Assembly: GCF_964204865.1 (NCBI RefSeq)
Contig: NC_135251.1
Span: 13,888,001 to 13,952,000, forward strand
DNA from: Styela clava
Lineage: Eukaryota
Reading direction: 5' to 3'
Length of the DNA: 64,000 nucleotides
Below are positions 18,001 to 30,000 of this stretch, piece after piece (position 1 is the first letter of the stretch; each line of letters starts with the position of its first letter). A program made the position numbers.

Positions 18001-21000
18001 TGATGACTGTATTTTTTGGTTGAAAAAATAATAAATCTTTCTCTCTATTAAACATTCTAACCTTTTGACCTTAAAAAAAGTGAACTCACTTGAAAACGCA
18101 TTAGATCTTTGGCCTCCATATTTACAATGTGCCAGACGAAACAACAGGATAGACCTGCATGATCGTAATTTTATGCATCCTTTTATCATTGCAACCTTCC
18201 GTATTATTCGTTTGAACACGAGATTCTCGGGCAGCTTAAACTTTCAGGGCAATCAGGCAAGGGCGGTATGTTAGTCGTTGGGCAAGGGTCAACTCTGCAA
18301 ACGGCAACATGTGAATCCATGTGGATTGTAAATGACTAAATAACTGCTACCGGTAGATGTCAATAAAGAGTATTATCGTTCATCTTGACTTTTCCCCTTT
18401 CATCACTGCAACGAAACTCGGAGGCAACTATTTGAATTGCTCATAAAGTTCTGCAGTTCAGCAGTTACATTCGAATATATTTTTAACGGAATACCGTACG
18501 GTAGAAGACCGGTAGTCAAAAAACACATTGATGATGAAGAATGACTACGAAACAGGTAGCATTGATTTGATTTCTGATTTGTTTGCAAAATATCAGCTTC
18601 GAAGCTTTTATGTTAATAGTCTACCTGCAAACCTACCTAACTTAGGTACTTTCTATTACTGAACAAACTGGGAAAAGAACATTTAATATACATAGGCCTA
18701 GTCTATATAGGCTAATTGGGTCATAGCCCACTAACAACACAAAATAAGGCCTCATTTTTAAGGGAATTTTCTCAAACATGTCAAACCAGGGCGCGTGCAC
18801 ACTCATTCGAAAATAAAAGAGATTTAAGTAACATTCAACCTATAATATTAATACACATCCGTACCAATATCTTAGGATATTTTGCCATGTGCATTATCAA
18901 ATAACGTTATTATGTAGTCTAGATAGAAAATAATAATCTTCTGCTAATTGCCGTCATTCTATAATACAGTAATATGAATTTCAAGCTGAGGATTTGGTAT
19001 GACTCTGGAAGTCTCTAGCTGTTTGACCTGATTTGACATAGTACAGTAGTATGATTCAATCTAACAATTCTGTCATCTGTCTCAGTTACAATGATATTGC
19101 TATTTACCTCATTCAAACTGCACCTCATGTCAGCATGTGGAGAGTTGTCGATAATGTGATGCAGACTTTATTTAATTCTAACTGTTCACCACCTGACTTG
19201 CAATATTCTCATTTAAGTGTATGTCTGGGAAAATTATGAAATATTATCTGCCTAAACAAAATATTCATCATATTTCAGGCTTACAGCGTGGAAGAGGATC
19301 TCGACACAATATGAGTCGAATAAGATGGGTTTTGCTAGCACTTGTTGTTTTTAACATATTTCTTCTTTATAAATTATGGACCCAGAATGTTGAAATATCT
19401 GCAATTGAGGTAAATATTTTTTGCTTTATTAAATATCACTAACCTGACGTTAATTAAGATAAGTCATTCAATTATTTTTGTGGAACATGTAATGCAAAAT
19501 AGCGTTTAAACGAAGTAAAAACGTAGTTTTAAACTAAACTTTTGTTTTAGACAAAAAATAGTGAAATGCATGAACATATTGAAGATACCAATAGAAAGAA
19601 ATTAAAAGCGGAAAAGATAACTACGGAAATTCAAATGGAAAAAAATGAATGTGATACGAAATTGGCAGAAGAAAAAGGTAGAAAATTGATTATTATTGCA
19701 TTCTGAGCAGAGTTTTAGGCATGATCTGAATCTTAGACATCATTGCAGGCTTGAGATAATAGGTCGACACTGATATGACTGTAACACATTGGTTTTCTCT
19801 CATTTTATACAATTCCATGCATTTCTCTTTTTAAAGGCCACAGAGCTAGCCTTTTTATTGCGAACAGATCTGTGTAGTCATCTTTATTGATATTAGGGTG
19901 GTATCTTGAGCCGAAATTTCGAATTATTCGTATTCGGAGTCTAAATTTTTGTCCTAAAAATTGTTATCAACACAGAATCTAAATTTTAAGCTTGAGTCTG
20001 GGGGTCTCCCGAAGTACGCACCTGCAAGTACTTCTAGTTGGTATAGTATAATGATTTTCGCATATAATACTCCTAACCATCACCAGACTATGTCATAGTT
20101 TCCAGACCCCTGGTTTTGAGCCAATAGTTATATATTGTTAATCAACCAATGAAGTTTAATTAGCATATGTACGGCATTAGAAATTGAACCGAATCTGGCA
20201 GCTGAATAGATATTAAAATATTTCAGGTTTATCAGCCAAATATAAGAATGAGAAGGAATCACAGGAAAGGGTTCTTGATTCATCGCGATCGGATTTAAAA
20301 GAATTAACTGCAAGTTATGAGCGACTTAAAAAAGAGAAGGTTTGTGGAAATTTTCATGTTGTTTTCTCAACTTCATGGTGTGATGCTGGAGAAACTTAGG
20401 AAATTTAATTTTATAAATAGGAATATCTACAAAAACTCACTGGTACTAGGAACCAAATTCCAGATTTAAAAAAAATTTCTGTTTTGAGATTTCTGGTAAT
20501 CATATTTCCAGCTGTTTTTTCTGTAAAATTCTGTATGAAAGTTGAAAATACTGGTTCACAAGTGTTAATAATGGACCAAAGGCTAGAATTGTTAGGTATC
20601 TACACAGTTATTGTAGCATAGTGAACTTTGATTCAAACATTGCAAAATCAAACCCTTCTAATTATTCTAGTAGTGGTGAATTCTAAAAACTTTTTATCTG
20701 AAGGAAACTGTGGACTCAGAACATGAACGTTGCCTTGCTGAACTTGAGAGTACTAAAGAAATTGTTGAGCAATTGCAAGCCAAGATACAAAAGTTAGAGC
20801 AAAGTCCTATTGGGTAATTATATTATTGTTAATACATTATTGTGCATTTCCTTTTGAACAAGAATTTAAATTAGCAAAAACCAAAAAAAATTGGTGAGGT
20901 TGTTCAACTTTTTATGTTCAATATTTTTAATGTTGAAATGAGTGTTGATTGGAGCATGAATTTATCAAATCAAAATTCAAGAGCAATACACTGATATAAG

Positions 21001-27000: not shown

Positions 27001-30000
27001 TTAACGTCTAATCTCTAATAATTATCACCATTTAAGTATTGTCACTGTTTTTTTAAATTGGTCTGGACAATAATATAAAATTCAAATTATATTTTATTTT
27101 CAAAAGATTGTTAAAAGTTGAACCGACAGGAACACACAATGCTATTTTAAAATTTATGTATAAAGTGTATCTCACTTTTCACTCTTGAGGAAAGTTATAG
27201 AGAGTGTTTACTGGTATGAAGAGAGCTGCTACTTTAAAATGAATCAAAATCTTTTTGGTTTGGCGTTGCATACCAAATTTTGTTACACTATGGGTCAGGT
27301 CACGGAAGTCAATGAAACAGATCTTTAACTCACGCTCCGACTTTAACAAAGTTGAGTAGACAGTCGTAATCACCATGACGACATCAAGGGCACGAAATCA
27401 TACAAAATTGCTTTTGAACTGCTTTCGTTTTTATTCTGGAATCTTTACTGAGACTGTGAGGTAATGTCTCGCTGTTTCTGTTTGAGATGAATAAGTAACT
27501 TCCAGGTGTCAGGGAAGTTGTACTAAAATATTTTTTATTTTATAGCCTTATCTGCTAAATATCCATTTTTCTGCTTTTATTTAAAACAGGAAAAAACTGA
27601 AAACACAGAAGAAGATGAAGAAATTACTGATGAGGAAAGGAAAGATATTAGTGAAATTGTGAAATAAATCCTTTTTTTTTATTGTTTTTATCATTATACT
27701 TTGGTTTTATTTAACAACCATTAATAATATAATCTTTTCTGATATGAAGTTTTCAAACTATGCTAGATTTTTATAGCACTAAATATGAAGCTGAAGATAA
27801 TCATGTCATGTGAGTGGCATCAATGATCTCACTTTTATTTTACTCATTTTATTTAAAAAATAATAGAGATCTTGGGTGTATTCTCAGTTCTAAATTTTTT
27901 TCAATTATGCATCAAAATTACACATCAATGTCGATGTCATGGTAATTGTCAAAATTTTGTATTGCAATTAAAAAATTTCAAAAATTCTGAATTGAGCTGT
28001 TTTGGCCGCTCTATGGCAAATTTCGGCGCTCCAGAGGTGTGTTTATCAATATGGAGGTAACTAATTTTGTTCGCCTAATTTACATCAAGTTGTGTAAAGG
28101 AACTGAAACCTGGCTATGGGCTGGGGGATATTCAATTGGCTAACACAAACAGTCCCCGAACTCGTAATGGAACGAAAATAAGGAAAAATCAGAATAAAAT
28201 TATGGCCTAACTCTAACCTGGTACACACACTACGGGAGTACCAAAATATCTGCTATTAATCTGTCCTTAATGCTGACGACCCTTGTTTCCATCACTCTTG
28301 CTTCAGAAATATTATATTTTTGGCGGCTCTTCAACTCTTCAACATAAAATCAATTTTATTTAAAAGTTATATACTACTGTATTCCTTTTTTTTCATGGGC
28401 AATATTACGGATCATTGCGGTACATTCACACACCAAAGAGCTTGTTCTTTCAAAATGGTAATTTGTCACCTTATGTTTATATAAATGTCAGGAAATATAG
28501 TTCCAAATTTAAATATTTTCACTGATATATATCACAGTCCATCGATTTTGATTAAATAAAATTGGAGGAATTACCGTAGGTGGCATTATACATAATTTTC
28601 CCCAAAGATCTGAAATAATGTTTTCTCTATTTTATTTGTCTTTTGTATATTGTTATTTGTCCTTGTTACTGGTCACCACTCAATTTAGTAATATGCTTTT
28701 CTAAGTTTTTTTGTCTCACTAATTAGCTGTATATCTAATATCTACATAATTTATGTTGTAGCAATGTTTGGGAAGTCAGGAAAAAATATCTTGGTGGCAA
28801 ATACAATAAAAAAAATCTTGTTATTGTCATAATGTCAAATTTATGAAAAATAGGAGGTGTGCGTATTTGTGACAGTTTTTCCTAAACATGGTGAATCAAT
28901 ATAGTACTGAAACTGTTGTCGTGTTATTAAAATCGGTTAGTTATTATGTGTGTGTTTCTCAAATATTATACAATAGGAATCAAAAGATTCAGTGAAAACA
29001 AAATCCGGTTTCTTGTTCATTAATAGAATCTATTTGTTTGTGGAAAATTACTAGTTAATTTGTAGAAGCACATATCAAGATTCTTCTGCATACTAATTCA
29101 ATATTAAAGGATTAAACAAAACAAATCATTTTGACATTTTTAAACACAGTTTGACCAAAATTCATACCAATTTGTCTTTGGTATTGTGTGGGTTTCACCT
29201 TTAATAGTGCGAATAAGACCATTAGTTATCACACCACCCTCTTTTCAATTCTACATTTACACATTCAGTTTTGTGTTTTTTTGTTCACATTGCACAAAAC
29301 AATATTTCGTGGTGAAAATTATATGGTAAAGCAACTTTGCTTTCGTTATTTGTTTCCACTGACGATATAATTTGTTTGTCGTCTAGATTTCTTTTTAATT
29401 TCTTATTCAGTGGATAAATGTAATGATGACCACAATCGTAATGGGCTTGTTTCTTCTAAACTATTGAGTCAGTAACTAACATTCAATCATGTATTTCACC
29501 AAAACAATAATAGAAAAAGATTTTCCATTCCATTGCTCCGAATCTAGAACCTGCTGACATATTGAAAGTATATCATCTAGTAATGTAACACTAACTTAGC
29601 ATTGAATACCTCAATATTTATTTCAATCTGTCATTGTCCAAAACGTGTCGTGATTGCTAGACTAAAAATGCTTCATCTTCAAGCAACATTCAAGTGATCT
29701 GCTAGAATTACTAACGACATCAGAAACTCCGAATAGATTTCTAGAATGCAACTTGGTAGCATCCTATGTATATTCAAACATTTATTTTCTTTATAGACAT
29801 TAAGTTTCACATTTGGGAATAGCTTACACAGATTTGATGAGCTTTTAAGTGTTGTATCATGTTATTGACTAACATTCCCAAAGCGAAACAATGCAAATAG
29901 GGTAATGCTGTAAAAATTACGAAAATACTTTGTAGAAAAGTGATTTTTATTTTGAAAGTATATATTAATCCATTCCATTAATGTTGTCTTAATAATATCG

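What the first reader, a model, noticed from the sequence alone, without database searches (positions are those of the whole stretch)
19311..27667. Unnamed type II membrane protein: signal-anchor, coiled-coil stalk and a single divergent MAM-like domain
Seen: an intact 11-exon, 378-aa gene that the ORF track captures only as three fragments. It has a 5-residue cytosolic tail, a TM helix, about 115 aa of E/K-rich helix with two cysteines, an acidic Pro-containing linker, a four-Cys MAM-like module and an acidic tail. Known: MAM domains are usually extracellular in type I or secreted proteins (meprin, neuropilin, RPTPmu, zonadhesin). A short tail + TM + coiled coil + acidic region resembles the Golgi proteins GOLM1/CASC4/GOLIM4, or the stalks of type II lectin and scavenger receptors. 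Inference: this may be a lineage-specific fusion that presents an oligomerised MAM head as an adhesion/recognition receptor or Golgi lumenal protein. The conserved IAIDDI motif reads FAIANL here, so function may be altered.
Basis: partly seen in the sequence, partly recalled or inferred. Interest (0 to 1): 0.72.

Follow-up and report, generated by a model that had tools for sequence, protein, structure and literature searches.

The report
Sea-squirt membrane-anchored coiled-coil MAM protein

Summary
The gene is real. The window is Styela clava (an ascidian), not human. One exon peptide alone retrieved the NCBI record 'uncharacterized protein LOC120335828', 397 aa.

A 25-nt first coding exon (18531-18555) and an earlier acceptor (exon 1 starts at 19279) were missed. 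The gene therefore has 12 coding exons and 397 aa, and the cytosolic tail is 24 residues, not 5.

The C-terminal domain is a divergent MAM:
- Pfam scores 28.8 bits against a cut-off of 26.4.
- AlphaFold models of two family members hit solved MAM domains first.
- The metal-binding Asp of the conserved motif is lost in 4 of 4 members.

The stalk is one unbroken heptad run of about 114 residues. Every stalk cysteine sits at a core 'd' position, and the stalk is modelled as a parallel in-register dimer.

Only four such proteins turned up in billions searched. The tail and membrane helix are their best-conserved parts.

The N-terminal half is organised like the Golgi proteins GPP130, GOLM1 and GOLM2. 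My reading is a disulfide-linked type II rod that presents MAM heads. Whether it sits in the Golgi or at the cell surface is unresolved. Novelty is moderate: a new architecture built from known parts.

The parts
18531..18555 (+). It encodes residues 1-8 plus the first base of codon 9. The start ATG is at 18531 and the donor GT at 18556-57.
   Evidence: tblastn of P0001 gave 100% identity over 9 aa at 18531-18557. The sequence was read. The exon peptide is an exact substring of P0001 at 1-8. An in-frame TAG lies at 18513-15 upstream.
19279..19409 (+). Exon 1, with its acceptor AG at 19277-78. It encodes the rest of the 24-residue cytosolic tail, the membrane helix W25-W42 and the start of the stalk (P0001 10-52).
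   Evidence: Hydropathy shows the only KD19 > 1.6 windows start at residues 20-26. The tail is invariant at 11 of 24 positions and the TM at 10 of 18 across 4 members.
19551..19677 (+). Exon 2: coiled-coil stalk, residues 53-94, including Cys86, which is invariant in all 4 members and sits at a heptad 'd' position.
20227..20339 (+). Exon 3: coiled-coil stalk, residues 96-132.
20704..20813 (+). Exon 4: end of the coiled-coil stalk, residues 133-168, including Cys142 (heptad 'd' position, present in P0001 and P0002 only).
21497..21569 (+). Exon 5: acidic, Pro-containing disordered linker, residues 170-193.
   Evidence: pLDDT is below 50 over residues 166-212. The 169-212 segment has 13 D/E against 3 K/R, and 5 Pro.
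22755..22806 (+). Exon 6: acidic linker, residues 194-210.
23490..23645 (+). Exon 7: first quarter of the MAM domain, residues 212-262 (Cys218, Cys231, Trp243).
   Evidence: This exon peptide alone retrieved P0001 and P0002. The Pfam MAM match starts at residue 218, which is profile position 1.
24671..24793 (+). Exon 8: MAM domain, residues 264-303 (the invariant L-x-I-D-D motif and Cys291).
25186..25242 (+). Exon 9: MAM domain, residues 305-322.
   Evidence: At 18 aa it is too short to scan on its own.
26833..26981 (+). Exon 10: last quarter of the MAM domain, residues 324-372. It holds the degenerate G-x-x-A-I-A-N-L version of the conserved MAM motif, and Cys370.
   Evidence: The exon alone hits Pfam MAM profile positions 112-158 of 158 with E 0.032 and 14.5 bits, below the cut-off.
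27590..27667 (+). Exon 11: acidic C-terminal tail, residues 373-397, with a predicted short terminal helix, then the TAA stop. An AATAAA at 27663 overlaps the stop.
   Evidence: (helix 386-396, block-mean pLDDT 62-65).

Best explanation
The locus is the 12-exon Styela clava gene LOC120335828. It encodes a 397-aa type II (N-terminus inside) single-pass membrane protein.

Parts, in order:
- A 24-residue cytosolic tail with a conserved motif.
- A short membrane helix bounded by invariant Arg22 and Arg24 on the cytosolic side and Lys40 on the other.
- A roughly 114-residue coiled coil with an unbroken heptad pattern, continuing straight out of the membrane helix.
- An acidic disordered linker.
- One divergent MAM jelly-roll domain.
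- An acidic tail ending in a short helix.

Inferred mechanism: the stalks pair in parallel and in register and are locked by inter-chain disulfides through cysteines at 'd' core positions. This gives a rigid rod of roughly 17 nm. The rod holds two (or more) MAM heads on flexible tethers in the lumen or outside the cell, where they bind a ligand with avidity. The tail and membrane helix are the best-conserved parts and would carry the sorting information.

The N-terminal half is organised like GPP130, GOLM1 and GOLM2. I therefore commit to a Golgi-based protein, possibly cycling through endosomes, that carries a ligand-binding MAM head. I do not favour a resident cell-surface adhesion molecule.

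Shown here: the gene structure, the topology signals, the heptad pattern, the MAM fold in models, and the narrow distribution. Inferred only: oligomeric state, disulfides, compartment and ligand binding.
For: Gene:
- 12 of 12 exon peptides are exact substrings of the public record, and 1194 nt equals 397 codons plus stop.
- Three further colinear full-length relatives exist. They come from contigs of only 1375, 1382 and 3673 nt, which is transcript-like, so stalk and MAM appear to lie on one mRNA.

Topology:
- One hydrophobic segment; tail net charge +4.
- AlphaFold gives one continuous helix over residues 17-165 and 15-167 in P0003.

Stalk:
- 20-24 of 33 a/d positions are hydrophobic in each of the 4 members, against 1-15 of 33 in the six shifted registers.
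- All 4 cysteine-bearing stalk columns fall on 'd' positions.
- Self-pairing model of residues 43-168, two copies: score 0.58 in 3 of 3 runs, best of 3 controls 0.00. The runs agree in at least 99% of contacts, and the partner pLDDT is at least 89.
- The tool's mark was reached by 21 of 30 proteins solved as pairs of one chain and by 0 of 23 solved as single chains (microbes).
- On eukaryotes the mark was reached by 17 of 29 (animals 7 of 16), but by only 1 of the 7 with no older solved relative, and by 0 of 30 single chains.
- Contacts are in register, for example 142:142 and 146:146.

MAM:
- Pfam PF00629 matches residues 218-371 to profile positions 1-158 of 158, at 28.8 bits against a cut-off of 26.4.
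- 18 of the first 20 listed fold hits are MAM-bearing entries; the best is 8yt7, E 9.8e-8, TM 0.62 on the target.
- The first 12 listed rows for the P0003 model are all MAM-bearing.
- ESM Atlas look-alikes of residues 211-375 are MAM clusters, scoring 0.94, 0.92 and 0.92.

Golgi-like organisation:
- The hydrophobic run W25-Y39 is 15 residues and is followed by K-L-W-T-Q-N-V-E. ER and Golgi membrane helices are shorter than plasma-membrane ones, differing at positions 17-23 (PMC2928124 passages).
- GOLM1 needs only its membrane helix plus a positive residue at the cytosolic end for Golgi localisation, and it is a disulfide-bonded dimer through its coiled coil (PMC3226628 abstract).
- GPP130, GOLM1 and GOLM2 share a short tail, a type II helix, a linker of 0-5 residues, a luminal coiled coil of at least 100 aa and a C-terminal disordered acidic region, without sequence homology to each other (PMC13752275 section 14).
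- Tail and helix are invariant at 46% and 56% of positions, against 11-15% elsewhere.
- No N-glycan sequon is conserved, and P0002 has none.
Against: - No localisation, expression or binding data exist for this protein. The compartment is inferred from statistics and analogy.
- All MAM proteins whose structures were hit are extracellular (recalled), which favours a surface role.
- The tail (24 aa) is twice as long as in GPP130, GOLM1 and GOLM2 (12-14 aa). The membrane helix (15-18 aa) is shorter than theirs (21-23 aa). A GOLM1 mutant with a 16-residue helix dispersed through the cell rather than staying in the Golgi (PMC3226628 section 8).
- The conserved Tyr-containing tail motif could equally be an endocytic or signalling motif of a surface receptor.
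- The profile search of 1.84 billion representatives found no GOLM-type relative, so the likeness is in organisation only.
- The pairing model's controls were unrelated proteins, not other coiled coils. The model did not use my alignment, and a trimer or tetramer was not tested.
- Both AlphaFold models rest on the same shallow four-sequence alignment.
- Pfam detects MAM in only 2 of 4 members, and above the cut-off in only 1.
- Sequence searches of the PDB found no MAM protein.
Confidence: 0.42

Rival explanations
1. Same protein and same oligomeric rod, but resident at the plasma membrane. It would be an adhesion, recognition or scavenger-type receptor that presents clustered MAM heads to the outside. 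This would be analogous to type II coiled-coil receptors such as COLEC12, ASGR1, OLR1 or langerin, with the conserved Tyr-containing tail used for endocytosis or signalling.
For: - The MAM structures hit first are from cell-surface or secreted proteins: scavenger receptor-C, neuropilin-1, PTPRK, RPTPmu, meprins.
- The best hit, 8yt7, is the MAM domain of an insect scavenger receptor. The listing for PMC6191154 describes that receptor as mediating uptake of a bacterial protein (listing only).
- Several human surface receptors are type II proteins with a juxtamembrane coiled coil (Table 1 of PMC13752275).
- The tail has an invariant D-Y-E-x-G motif and an invariant Ser. Signalling and endocytic motifs look like this (inference).
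Against: - The hydrophobic span is short, 15-18 residues, in all 4 members. Plasma-membrane helices are on average longer (PMC2928124 passages).
- The surface receptors in that table have tails of 20-60 residues and coiled coils mostly under 100 residues. This stalk is about 114 residues with no linker, as in the Golgi trio.
- There are no conserved N-glycosylation sequons.
- The Tyr motif does not fit the Y-x-x-hydrophobic spacing: Gly is at +3 in 4 of 4 members.
Confidence: 0.35
2. The N-terminal hydrophobic segment is a cleaved signal peptide, and the mature product is a secreted coiled-coil MAM protein.
For: The hydrophobic core is short, 15 residues, which is in the range of signal-peptide h-regions (inference). 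GOLM1 is also released from cells, by a different route (PMC3226628 abstract).
Against: - The 24 residues before the hydrophobic run and the run itself are the most conserved parts of the family: 11 of 24 and 10 of 18 positions invariant, against 11-15% elsewhere. That is not expected for a segment that is discarded.
- The helix is predicted to run uninterrupted from residue 17 to 165.
- No conserved small-x-small cleavage context follows the run (by eye).
- No furin-type R-x-[KR]-R site occurs in any of the 4 members.
- No dedicated signal-peptide predictor was available.
Confidence: 0.06
3. The C-terminal domain is a jelly-roll of another family (a CBM-like lectin module, an ephrin-receptor ligand-binding domain, a cleaved-adhesin domain or a TNF-like domain), and the MAM call is a false positive.
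For: - The Pfam score is only 2.4 bits above the cut-off in P0001, below it in P0002, and absent in P0003 and P0004.
- CBM61, CBM4, Eph ligand-binding and cleaved-adhesin domains appear lower in the fold lists.
- The conserved metal-binding Asp is missing.
Against: - The Pfam match spans the whole profile, 1-158 of 158, starting and ending on the first and last cysteines.
- The four cysteines are invariant.
- MAM entries take 18 of the first 20 listed rows for P0001 and the first 12 listed rows for P0003.
- The Atlas look-alikes with a family are MAM first.
- No TNF-family structure is in the listed rows.
Confidence: 0.05
4. The model wrongly joins two neighbouring genes: a coiled-coil membrane protein and a separate MAM protein.
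For: No RNA-seq of S. clava could be examined here. The largest introns, 1185 and 1590 nt, lie near or inside the MAM part.
Against: - The public record joins them.
- Three relatives at 24-63% BLASTP identity to P0001 keep the same order of parts in single proteins. They are encoded on contigs of 1375-3673 nt, too short to be unspliced copies of a gene like this one.
- The reading phase is continuous across all 11 introns.
- There is no start codon context or signal sequence at the start of the MAM exons (by eye).
Confidence: 0.02

Closest known systems
[quoted passage not shown]
   Same: - A short cytosolic tail with basic residues at the membrane boundary.
- A type II signal anchor.
- A coiled coil of more than 100 residues that starts at the membrane with essentially no linker.
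- A parallel homo-oligomer. GOLM1 is a disulfide-bonded dimer through its coiled coil.
- An acidic disordered region after the coil.

Sources: PMC13752275 abstract and section 14; PMC3226628 abstract and section 8. Compared.
   Different: - Those three end in a disordered region. This protein adds a folded MAM domain.
- The tail is 24 residues against 12-14. The helix is 15-18 residues against 21-23. The coil is about 114 residues against 164-210.
- No sequence similarity was detected: no such hit among 1.84 billion representatives and no Pfam family.
- Direct pairwise comparison was not possible, because no tool gave me their sequences.
- Localisation is untested.
MAM-domain proteins with solved structures: insect scavenger receptor-C (8yt7), Limulus LAST-MAM (8a28), neuropilin-1 (5l73), PTPRK and RPTPmu (8a1f, 2c9a, 2v5y), meprin alpha and beta, enteropeptidase
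   Same: - Jelly-roll fold, with TM-score on the target of 0.61-0.62 for the isolated MAM domains.
- A full-length Pfam MAM match.
- Four conserved cysteines, as in neuropilin-1, where they form two internal disulfides (PMC5104691 passages).
   Different: - Sequence identity in the structural alignments is only 10-18%.
- The Asp of the one strongly conserved motif is replaced in 4 of 4 members. In neuropilin-1 that Asp (D796, within G791-I800) binds Ca2+ with both oxygens, and the calcium-coordinating residues are conserved in meprin and RPTPmu.
- There is no fifth cysteine of the meprin type in P0001 or P0002.
- In all those proteins MAM is one of several domains. Here it is the only globular domain, on a type II coiled-coil stalk.
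Type II coiled-coil surface receptors with a C-terminal globular head (COLEC12, SCARA5, ASGR1, OLR1, langerin; also the neuronal pentraxin receptor, recalled)
   Same: N-terminal tail, signal anchor, oligomerising helical stalk and a C-terminal binding domain displayed in several copies (Table 1 of PMC13752275; head domains recalled).
   Different: - Their heads are C-type lectin, SRCR or pentraxin domains, not MAM.
- There are no collagen-like Gly-X-Y repeats here (sequence).
- The tail is shorter and the uninterrupted coil longer than in most of them.

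Membership tests
MAM domain (Pfam PF00629) | Match to the family profile at or above the curated cut-off, over the full domain length | tested here: met
   P0001 residues 218-371 match profile positions 1-158 of 158, E 1.2e-6, 28.8 bits against a cut-off of 26.4. 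This is marginal. P0002 scores 24.7 bits, below the cut-off. P0003 and P0004 give no match at E <= 1, so 2 of 4 members match and 1 of 4 is above the cut-off. Exon by exon, only exon 10 matched: E 0.032, 14.5 bits.
MAM domain (Pfam PF00629) | Jelly-roll beta-sandwich fold superimposable on solved MAM domains | tested here: met
   This was tested on AlphaFold models, not experimental structures. The P0001 domain 214-368 has 10-residue block pLDDT means mostly 77-89, dipping to 53 (221-230) and 67 (321-330). 18 of the first 20 listed PDB rows are MAM-bearing entries; the top hit is 8yt7, E 9.8e-8. For the P0003 model the first 12 listed rows are all MAM-bearing. Both models use the same 4-sequence alignment.
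MAM domain (Pfam PF00629) | Four conserved cysteines that form two intradomain disulfides | tested here: inconclusive
   The four cysteines (218, 231, 291, 370) are invariant in 4 of 4 members. The first and last coincide with the ends of the Pfam profile match.
MAM domain (Pfam PF00629) | The conserved G-x-I-A-I-D-D-I stretch, whose first Asp binds the structural metal ion (neuropilin-1 D796 within G791-I800) | tested here: not met
   At Gly356 + 5, the four members have Ala, Ser, Thr and Thr. The role of D796 comes from PMC5104691 passages. The equivalence rests on spacing from the conserved Gly, not on a structural superposition. Neuropilin-2 is a precedent for a MAM domain that probably binds no calcium, but it keeps this Asp.
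GPP130 / GOLM1 / GOLM2 class (an organisational class; its members share no sequence homology) | Short N-terminal cytosolic tail, type II helix, linker of 0-5 residues and a luminal juxtamembrane coiled coil of at least 100 residues | tested here: met
   The tail is 24 aa and the helix spans 25-42. A continuous predicted helix runs 17-165. The in-register interface spans 51-164, with an unbroken heptad pattern. Criteria are from PMC13752275 section 14. The tail is about twice as long and the helix shorter than in the three human proteins.
GPP130 / GOLM1 / GOLM2 class | C-terminal part is an intrinsically disordered acidic region | tested here: inconclusive
   An acidic disordered segment follows the coil: 166-212, pLDDT below 50, and the 169-212 segment has 13 D/E against 3 K/R. 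It is then followed by a folded MAM domain, which none of the three has.
GPP130 / GOLM1 / GOLM2 class | Residence in the Golgi (cisternal rim), cycling through endosomes | not testable with these tools
   No localisation data exist. There are only indirect hints: a short hydrophobic span and invariant Arg22 and Arg24 at the cytosolic boundary (PMC2928124 and PMC3226628).
GOLM1 / GOLM2 sequence family | Detectable sequence homology to GOLM1 or GOLM2 | tested here: not met
   The profile search of 1.84 billion representatives returned only P0002 and P0003 at E <= 0.001. No Pfam family other than MAM was above its cut-off. A direct pairwise comparison was not done.
Class A scavenger receptors / collectins | Collagen-like Gly-X-Y repeat region between the coiled coil and the head, with an SRCR or C-type lectin head | tested here: not met
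   The sequence has no Gly-X-Y repeats. Pfam finds no Collagen, SRCR or Lectin_C match at E <= 1.
TNF ligand superfamily (type II, C-terminal jelly-roll) | TNF homology domain | tested here: not met
   Pfam gives no TNF match. No TNF-family structure is among the listed fold hits.

The most novel reading that the evidence does not exclude
An ascidian-restricted protein in which a GPP130/GOLM-type Golgi-rim rod has acquired a folded ligand-binding MAM head that no longer binds a metal. It would be a luminal cargo or ligand receptor that cycles between Golgi, endosomes and perhaps the surface, and is sorted by its unusually conserved tail and membrane helix. It would be the first MAM domain known to work inside the secretory pathway. 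It would also be the first member of the GOLM-like class with an identifiable binding module, which could give a handle on what that poorly understood class does.
Probability: 0.3. Interest if true: 0.6.

Novelty: new variant of a known kind. Interest (0 to 1): 0.4.

Why it matters
MAM domains are known as adhesion and oligomerisation modules of multi-domain surface or secreted proteins. GPP130, GOLM1 and GOLM2 are type II rods whose cellular functions are still poorly defined (PMC13752275 section 14).

A natural protein that places a single MAM head on such a rod would show that this stalk design can serve as a presentation platform for a binding domain. It would also offer a simple system, with one globular domain, for asking what a metal-free MAM domain binds.

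The pattern of conservation is unusual for a single-pass protein: tail and membrane helix far above the ectodomain. It points to a sorting or partner-binding code that could be tested directly.

The practical gain is smaller.

Tried and rejected
Searches that gave little or nothing:
- Exon-by-exon Pfam. 8 of the 9 gave no MAM signal. Two gave sub-threshold coiled-coil noise: COG5_N at E 0.0084 and JIP_LZII at E 0.063.
- The joined spliced model was never built or searched. Full-length work used the public record instead.
- phmmer of P0001 against PDB sequences gave 0 matches at E <= 1.
- The 4-sequence profile against the PDB gave 23 matches at E <= 10. All had E >= 0.053, nearly all fell within the stalk and linker (one within the TM and stalk), and none was a MAM protein.
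- ESM Atlas with the whole protein gave no usable hit.
- The word-based homologue search with P0001 found only itself and P0002 among 5717 candidates.
The sources and names of P0002-P0004 beyond 'lgn' therefore stayed unknown, and so does the taxonomic range of the family.
- Rfam on the whole window gave 0 matches.
- Ten intronic or antisense open frames inside the locus gave no Pfam family above its cut-off; the single weak hit had E 0.031.
- Ten further open frames elsewhere in the window gave none.
- tblastn of P0001 against the window found no second copy.

Ideas rejected:
- A furin-type shedding site. There is no R-x-[KR]-R in any of the 4 members.
- A hemITAM or Y-x-x-hydrophobic reading of the tail. 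The spacing does not fit, because Gly is at +3 in 4 of 4 members.
- TNF-like, collagenous scavenger-receptor and SUN-like readings (see the membership rows; the SUN comparison is recalled only).

Literature:
- The locus name was found in 0 papers.
- 'MAM domain' + 'type II transmembrane' + 'coiled-coil' gave 1 paper, on neuronal pentraxins.
- 'MAM domain' + 'ascidian' gave 10 papers, + 'Styela' gave 3, and + 'type II membrane protein' + 'Golgi' gave 2.
- None describes this architecture, judging by titles and abstract starts only.

Closed and unchecked: metagenome contigs, viral contigs and supplementary files of papers.

Full report
**What the window is.**
The window has no N and is AT-rich, with 28-38% G+C in 2-kb windows. 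I never built or searched a joined protein. The peptide of exon 7 alone (51 aa) retrieved two longer proteins:
- P0001, NCBI 'uncharacterized protein LOC120335828 [Styela clava]', 397 aa, at 100% identity and 100% coverage.
- P0002, an unnamed 391-aa relative.

The window is therefore from the ascidian Styela clava, not from human. All full-length analyses below use the public record P0001 as a tool returned it, not a sequence that I assembled.

**Checking the observation.**
- 19311-19409, 19551-19677, 20227-20339, 20704-20813, 21497-21569, 22755-22806
- 23490-23645, 24671-24793, 25186-25242, 26833-26981, 27590-27667

All 10 introns are GT..AG with pyrimidine-rich acceptors. The total is 1137 nt, or 378 codons plus TAA.

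P0001 is 19 residues longer at the N-terminus. tblastn of P0001 on the window and reading the sequence explain the difference:
- There is a further coding exon at 18531-18555, with its donor at 18556-57.
- Exon 1 really begins at 19279, behind an acceptor at 19277-78.

With these changes, 12 of 12 exon peptides, each translated on its own, are exact substrings of P0001 in order. The exons sum to 1194 nt, which is 397 codons plus stop.

In P0002 that position is Ile, and in P0003 and P0004 it is Leu and Val. An in-frame TAG precedes the upstream ATG.

It is wrong about the 5' end: there are 12 coding exons, 397 aa and a 24-residue tail rather than a 5-residue one.

**Is it a real gene and one gene?**
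A profile of P0001 and P0002 was searched against 1.84 billion representative proteins. It found only 2 proteins at E <= 0.001: P0002 and a 434-aa protein, P0003. A word-based profile search added P0004, 439 aa, giving 4 proteins in all among 7999 scored candidates.

All four are colinear over their whole length. P0002 is 65% identical to P0001, and P0003 and P0004 are 25% identical.

P0002, P0003 and P0004 come from contigs of only 1375, 1382 and 3673 nt. Contigs that short which encode 391-439 uninterrupted residues look like transcripts. This argues that stalk and MAM lie on one mRNA in the relatives. I could not see the contigs or any S. clava RNA-seq.

The taxonomic range of the family is therefore unknown beyond one named ascidian.

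**Anatomy.**
- **Topology.** Hydropathy shows a single hydrophobic segment, residues 25-42. The tail before it has 6 K/R against 2 D/E, which fits an N-terminus-inside type II orientation.
- **AlphaFold model of P0001.** It used the 4-sequence alignment, with mean pLDDT 71. It gives one continuous helix at 17-165, a disordered stretch at 166-212 (pLDDT below 50), a beta domain at 214-368 (10-residue block means mostly 77-89, with dips to 53 and 67) and a short terminal helix at 386-396.
- **AlphaFold model of P0003.** It gives the same plan, with a longer disordered linker at 168-260.
- **Linker and tail.** Both are acidic.
- **Glycosylation and shedding.** No N-glycan sequon is conserved, and P0002 has none. 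No furin-type site occurs in any member.

**The MAM call.**
- **Exon by exon.** Only exon 10 touched Pfam MAM: profile positions 112-158 of 158, E 0.032, 14.5 bits, below the cut-off. Of the 9 exons long enough to scan, 8 gave no MAM signal.
- **Public record.** On P0001, MAM matches residues 218-371 to the entire profile (1-158 of 158), with E 1.2e-6 and 28.8 bits against a cut-off of 26.4.
- **Other members.** P0002 scores 24.7 bits, below the cut-off. P0003 and P0004 give nothing at E <= 1, so 2 of 4 members match.
- **PDB by sequence.** Sequence searches of the PDB found no MAM protein.
- **PDB by fold.** For the P0001 model, 18 of the first 20 listed PDB rows are MAM-bearing entries and 2 are a bacterial CBM61. 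The best is the MAM domain of Spodoptera scavenger receptor-C, 8yt7, with E 9.8e-8 and TM 0.62 on the target. That enteropeptidase contains a MAM domain is recalled. For the P0003 model, the first 12 listed rows are all MAM-bearing.
- **ESM Atlas.** The nearest clusters to residues 211-375 are MAM clusters at 0.94, 0.92 and 0.92, and 13 of 30 hits fall in that set. The first hit shares 168 features, just under the 170 typical of same-family hits, and that tool was not calibrated for parts of proteins.
- **Cysteines.** The four cysteines are invariant in 4 of 4 members.

I accept a divergent MAM domain. One caveat is that both models rest on the same shallow alignment.

**The degenerate motif.**
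Passages of the neuropilin-1 MAM structure paper (PMC5104691) give the context:
- The only stretch of strong sequence homology among MAM domains is G791-I800.
- That stretch contains D796, which binds the structural Ca2+ with both carboxylate oxygens.
- The ligands are conserved in meprin and RPTPmu.
- Neuropilin-2 probably does not bind calcium, but it keeps this Asp.

Counting five residues on from the conserved Gly356, the family has Ala, Ser, Thr and Thr. The canonical metal site is therefore probably absent in the whole family. This equivalence rests on spacing, not on a structural superposition.

**The stalk.**
A two-copy model of residues 43-168 passed the tool's test:
- The score was 0.58 in 3 of 3 runs, against 0.00 for the best of 3 controls.
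- The runs agree in at least 99% of contacts, and the partner pLDDT is at least 89.
- The mark was reached by 21 of 30 proteins solved as pairs of one chain and by 0 of 23 solved as single chains (microbes).
- On eukaryotes it was reached by 17 of 29 (animals 7 of 16), but by only 1 of the 7 with no older solved relative, and by 0 of 30 single chains.

The model is a parallel, in-register pair with contacts from 51 to 164, for example 142:142 and 146:146. It supports self-association but does not show it. The controls were not coiled coils, my alignment was not used, and higher oligomers were not tried.

Independently, I took the register from those contacts and counted core positions:
- 20-24 of 33 a/d positions are hydrophobic in each of the four proteins, against 1-15 of 33 in the six shifted registers.
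- There is no break over 16 heptads.
- Every stalk cysteine column lies on a 'd' position, 4 of 4 columns: Cys86 in all four proteins, Cys142 in P0001 and P0002, and two others in P0003 and P0004. If placement were random, the chance would be about (1/7)^4.

That is what inter-chain disulfides in a parallel coiled coil would require.

**Where conservation lies.**
The share of positions invariant across all four proteins differs sharply by region:

| Region | Invariant positions | Share |
|---|---|---|
| Tail | 11 of 24 | 46% |
| Membrane helix | 10 of 18 | 56% |
| Stalk | 14 of 126 | 11% |
| Linker | 5 of 44 | 11% |
| MAM | 24 of 160 | 15% |
| C-terminal tail | 3 of 25 | 12% |

The invariant residues include:
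- a D-Y-E-x-G motif;
- Ser16, Arg17 and His18;
- Arg22 and Arg24 at the membrane boundary;
- Asn34 inside the helix;
- Lys40.

For a single-pass protein this is unusual. It suggests that tail and helix do more than anchor the protein.

**How it most likely works.**
*Shown:* the gene structure, the topology signals, the heptad pattern, the MAM fold in models and the restricted distribution.

*Inferred:*
- The protein forms a disulfide-locked parallel rod. I estimate its length at about 17 nm, from 114 residues at about 0.15 nm each.
- The rod holds MAM heads on flexible acidic tethers in the lumen or outside the cell, where they bind a ligand multivalently.

*Compartment.* The published comparison that fits best is the GPP130, GOLM1 and GOLM2 trio:
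- According to PMC13752275 (abstract and section 14 read), these share a short tail (12-14 aa), a type II helix (21-23 aa), a linker of 0-5 residues, a luminal coiled coil of 164-210 residues and a disordered C-terminal region. They share no sequence homology with each other. The length of the coil places them at the cisternal rim.
- According to PMC3226628 (abstract and section 8 read), GOLM1 needs only its helix plus a positive residue at the cytosolic end to stay in the Golgi. It is also a disulfide-bonded dimer through its coiled coil.
- PMC2928124 (passages) shows that ER and Golgi helices are shorter than plasma-membrane ones.

Here the hydrophobic run is 15 residues (18 up to Trp42) in all four members. 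It is preceded by invariant arginines.

*Verdict.* I therefore favour a Golgi-based, possibly cycling, protein at 0.42 over a resident surface receptor at 0.35.

*Against this:*
- The known MAM proteins are extracellular.
- The tail is twice as long as in the trio.
- A GOLM1 mutant with a 16-residue helix was dispersed rather than Golgi-localised.
- There is no experimental datum for this protein.

**Comparison with known families and novelty.**
- **MAM.** It is a member of the MAM domain family by profile and by modelled fold, but it lacks the family's conserved metal-binding Asp.
- **GOLM class.** It works like, but is not detectably related to, the GOLM and GPP130 class.
- **Other type II jelly-roll or stalked proteins.** It is not a collagenous scavenger receptor and not a TNF ligand.
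- **Human parallels.** None of the 20 human type II proteins with luminal coiled coils listed in PMC13752275 Table 1 is a MAM protein, judging by name and recalled domain content.
- **Literature.** Searches for the locus name found 0 papers. Searches for the architecture found nothing describing it, judged from titles and abstract starts.

The locus is already annotated, and the parts are all known. What is new is the combination and its narrow distribution. I rate it a new variant of a known kind, with interest 0.4.

**What stayed unchecked.**
- The joined spliced model was not searched.
- The metagenome and viral contig collections and paper supplements were closed.
- No RNA-seq, dedicated topology predictor, signal-peptide predictor or coiled-coil predictor was available.
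- No direct comparison with GOLM1, GOLM2 or GPP130 sequences was possible.

Noticed in passing
window 8352-8678 (- strand): An open frame with a p24/GOLD (EMP24_GP25L) match: E 9.3e-6, 26.2 bits against a cut-off of 25.9, profile positions 1-41. It is probably the first luminal exon of a TMED-type cargo-receptor gene upstream of the locus.
   Followed up: partly
window 58660-58950 and 59289-59579 (+ strand): Two open frames match ABC2_membrane_3, with E 3.3e-13 and 1.3e-5, at consecutive profile positions 156-227 and 226-290. These look like exons of an ABCA-type transporter gene that probably fills the last 15-20 kb of the window.
   Followed up: partly
window 32508-33623 (+ strand): The longest open frame of the window, 371 aa and rich in Ser, Arg, Lys and Pro, has no Pfam match at E <= 0.01. 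It looks like one large exon of an unidentified, probably disordered, protein. Long antisense open frames overlap it.
   Followed up: partly
window 22594-22657, 24868-24931, 25613-25676; also 24166-24323 versus 28025-28187: A short dispersed repeat occurs in three different introns of the gene, at 63-81% identity to the reference copy. Separately, two adjacent inverted-repeat pairs (87 nt at 91% and 43 nt at 84% complementarity) link intron 7 to the region just downstream of the gene. These are probably interspersed mobile-element remnants. Rfam found nothing.
   Followed up: partly
window 27663-27668: An AATAAA hexamer overlaps the TAA stop codon. The next polyadenylation-like signals are at 27967 and 28193. 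Which one is used is unknown.
   Followed up: no
window 37848-38267 (+ strand): An open frame with a Gly/Ala/Pro-rich low-complexity stretch has no Pfam match. It may be an exon of the same gene as the 32.5-kb frame or of another gene.
   Followed up: no
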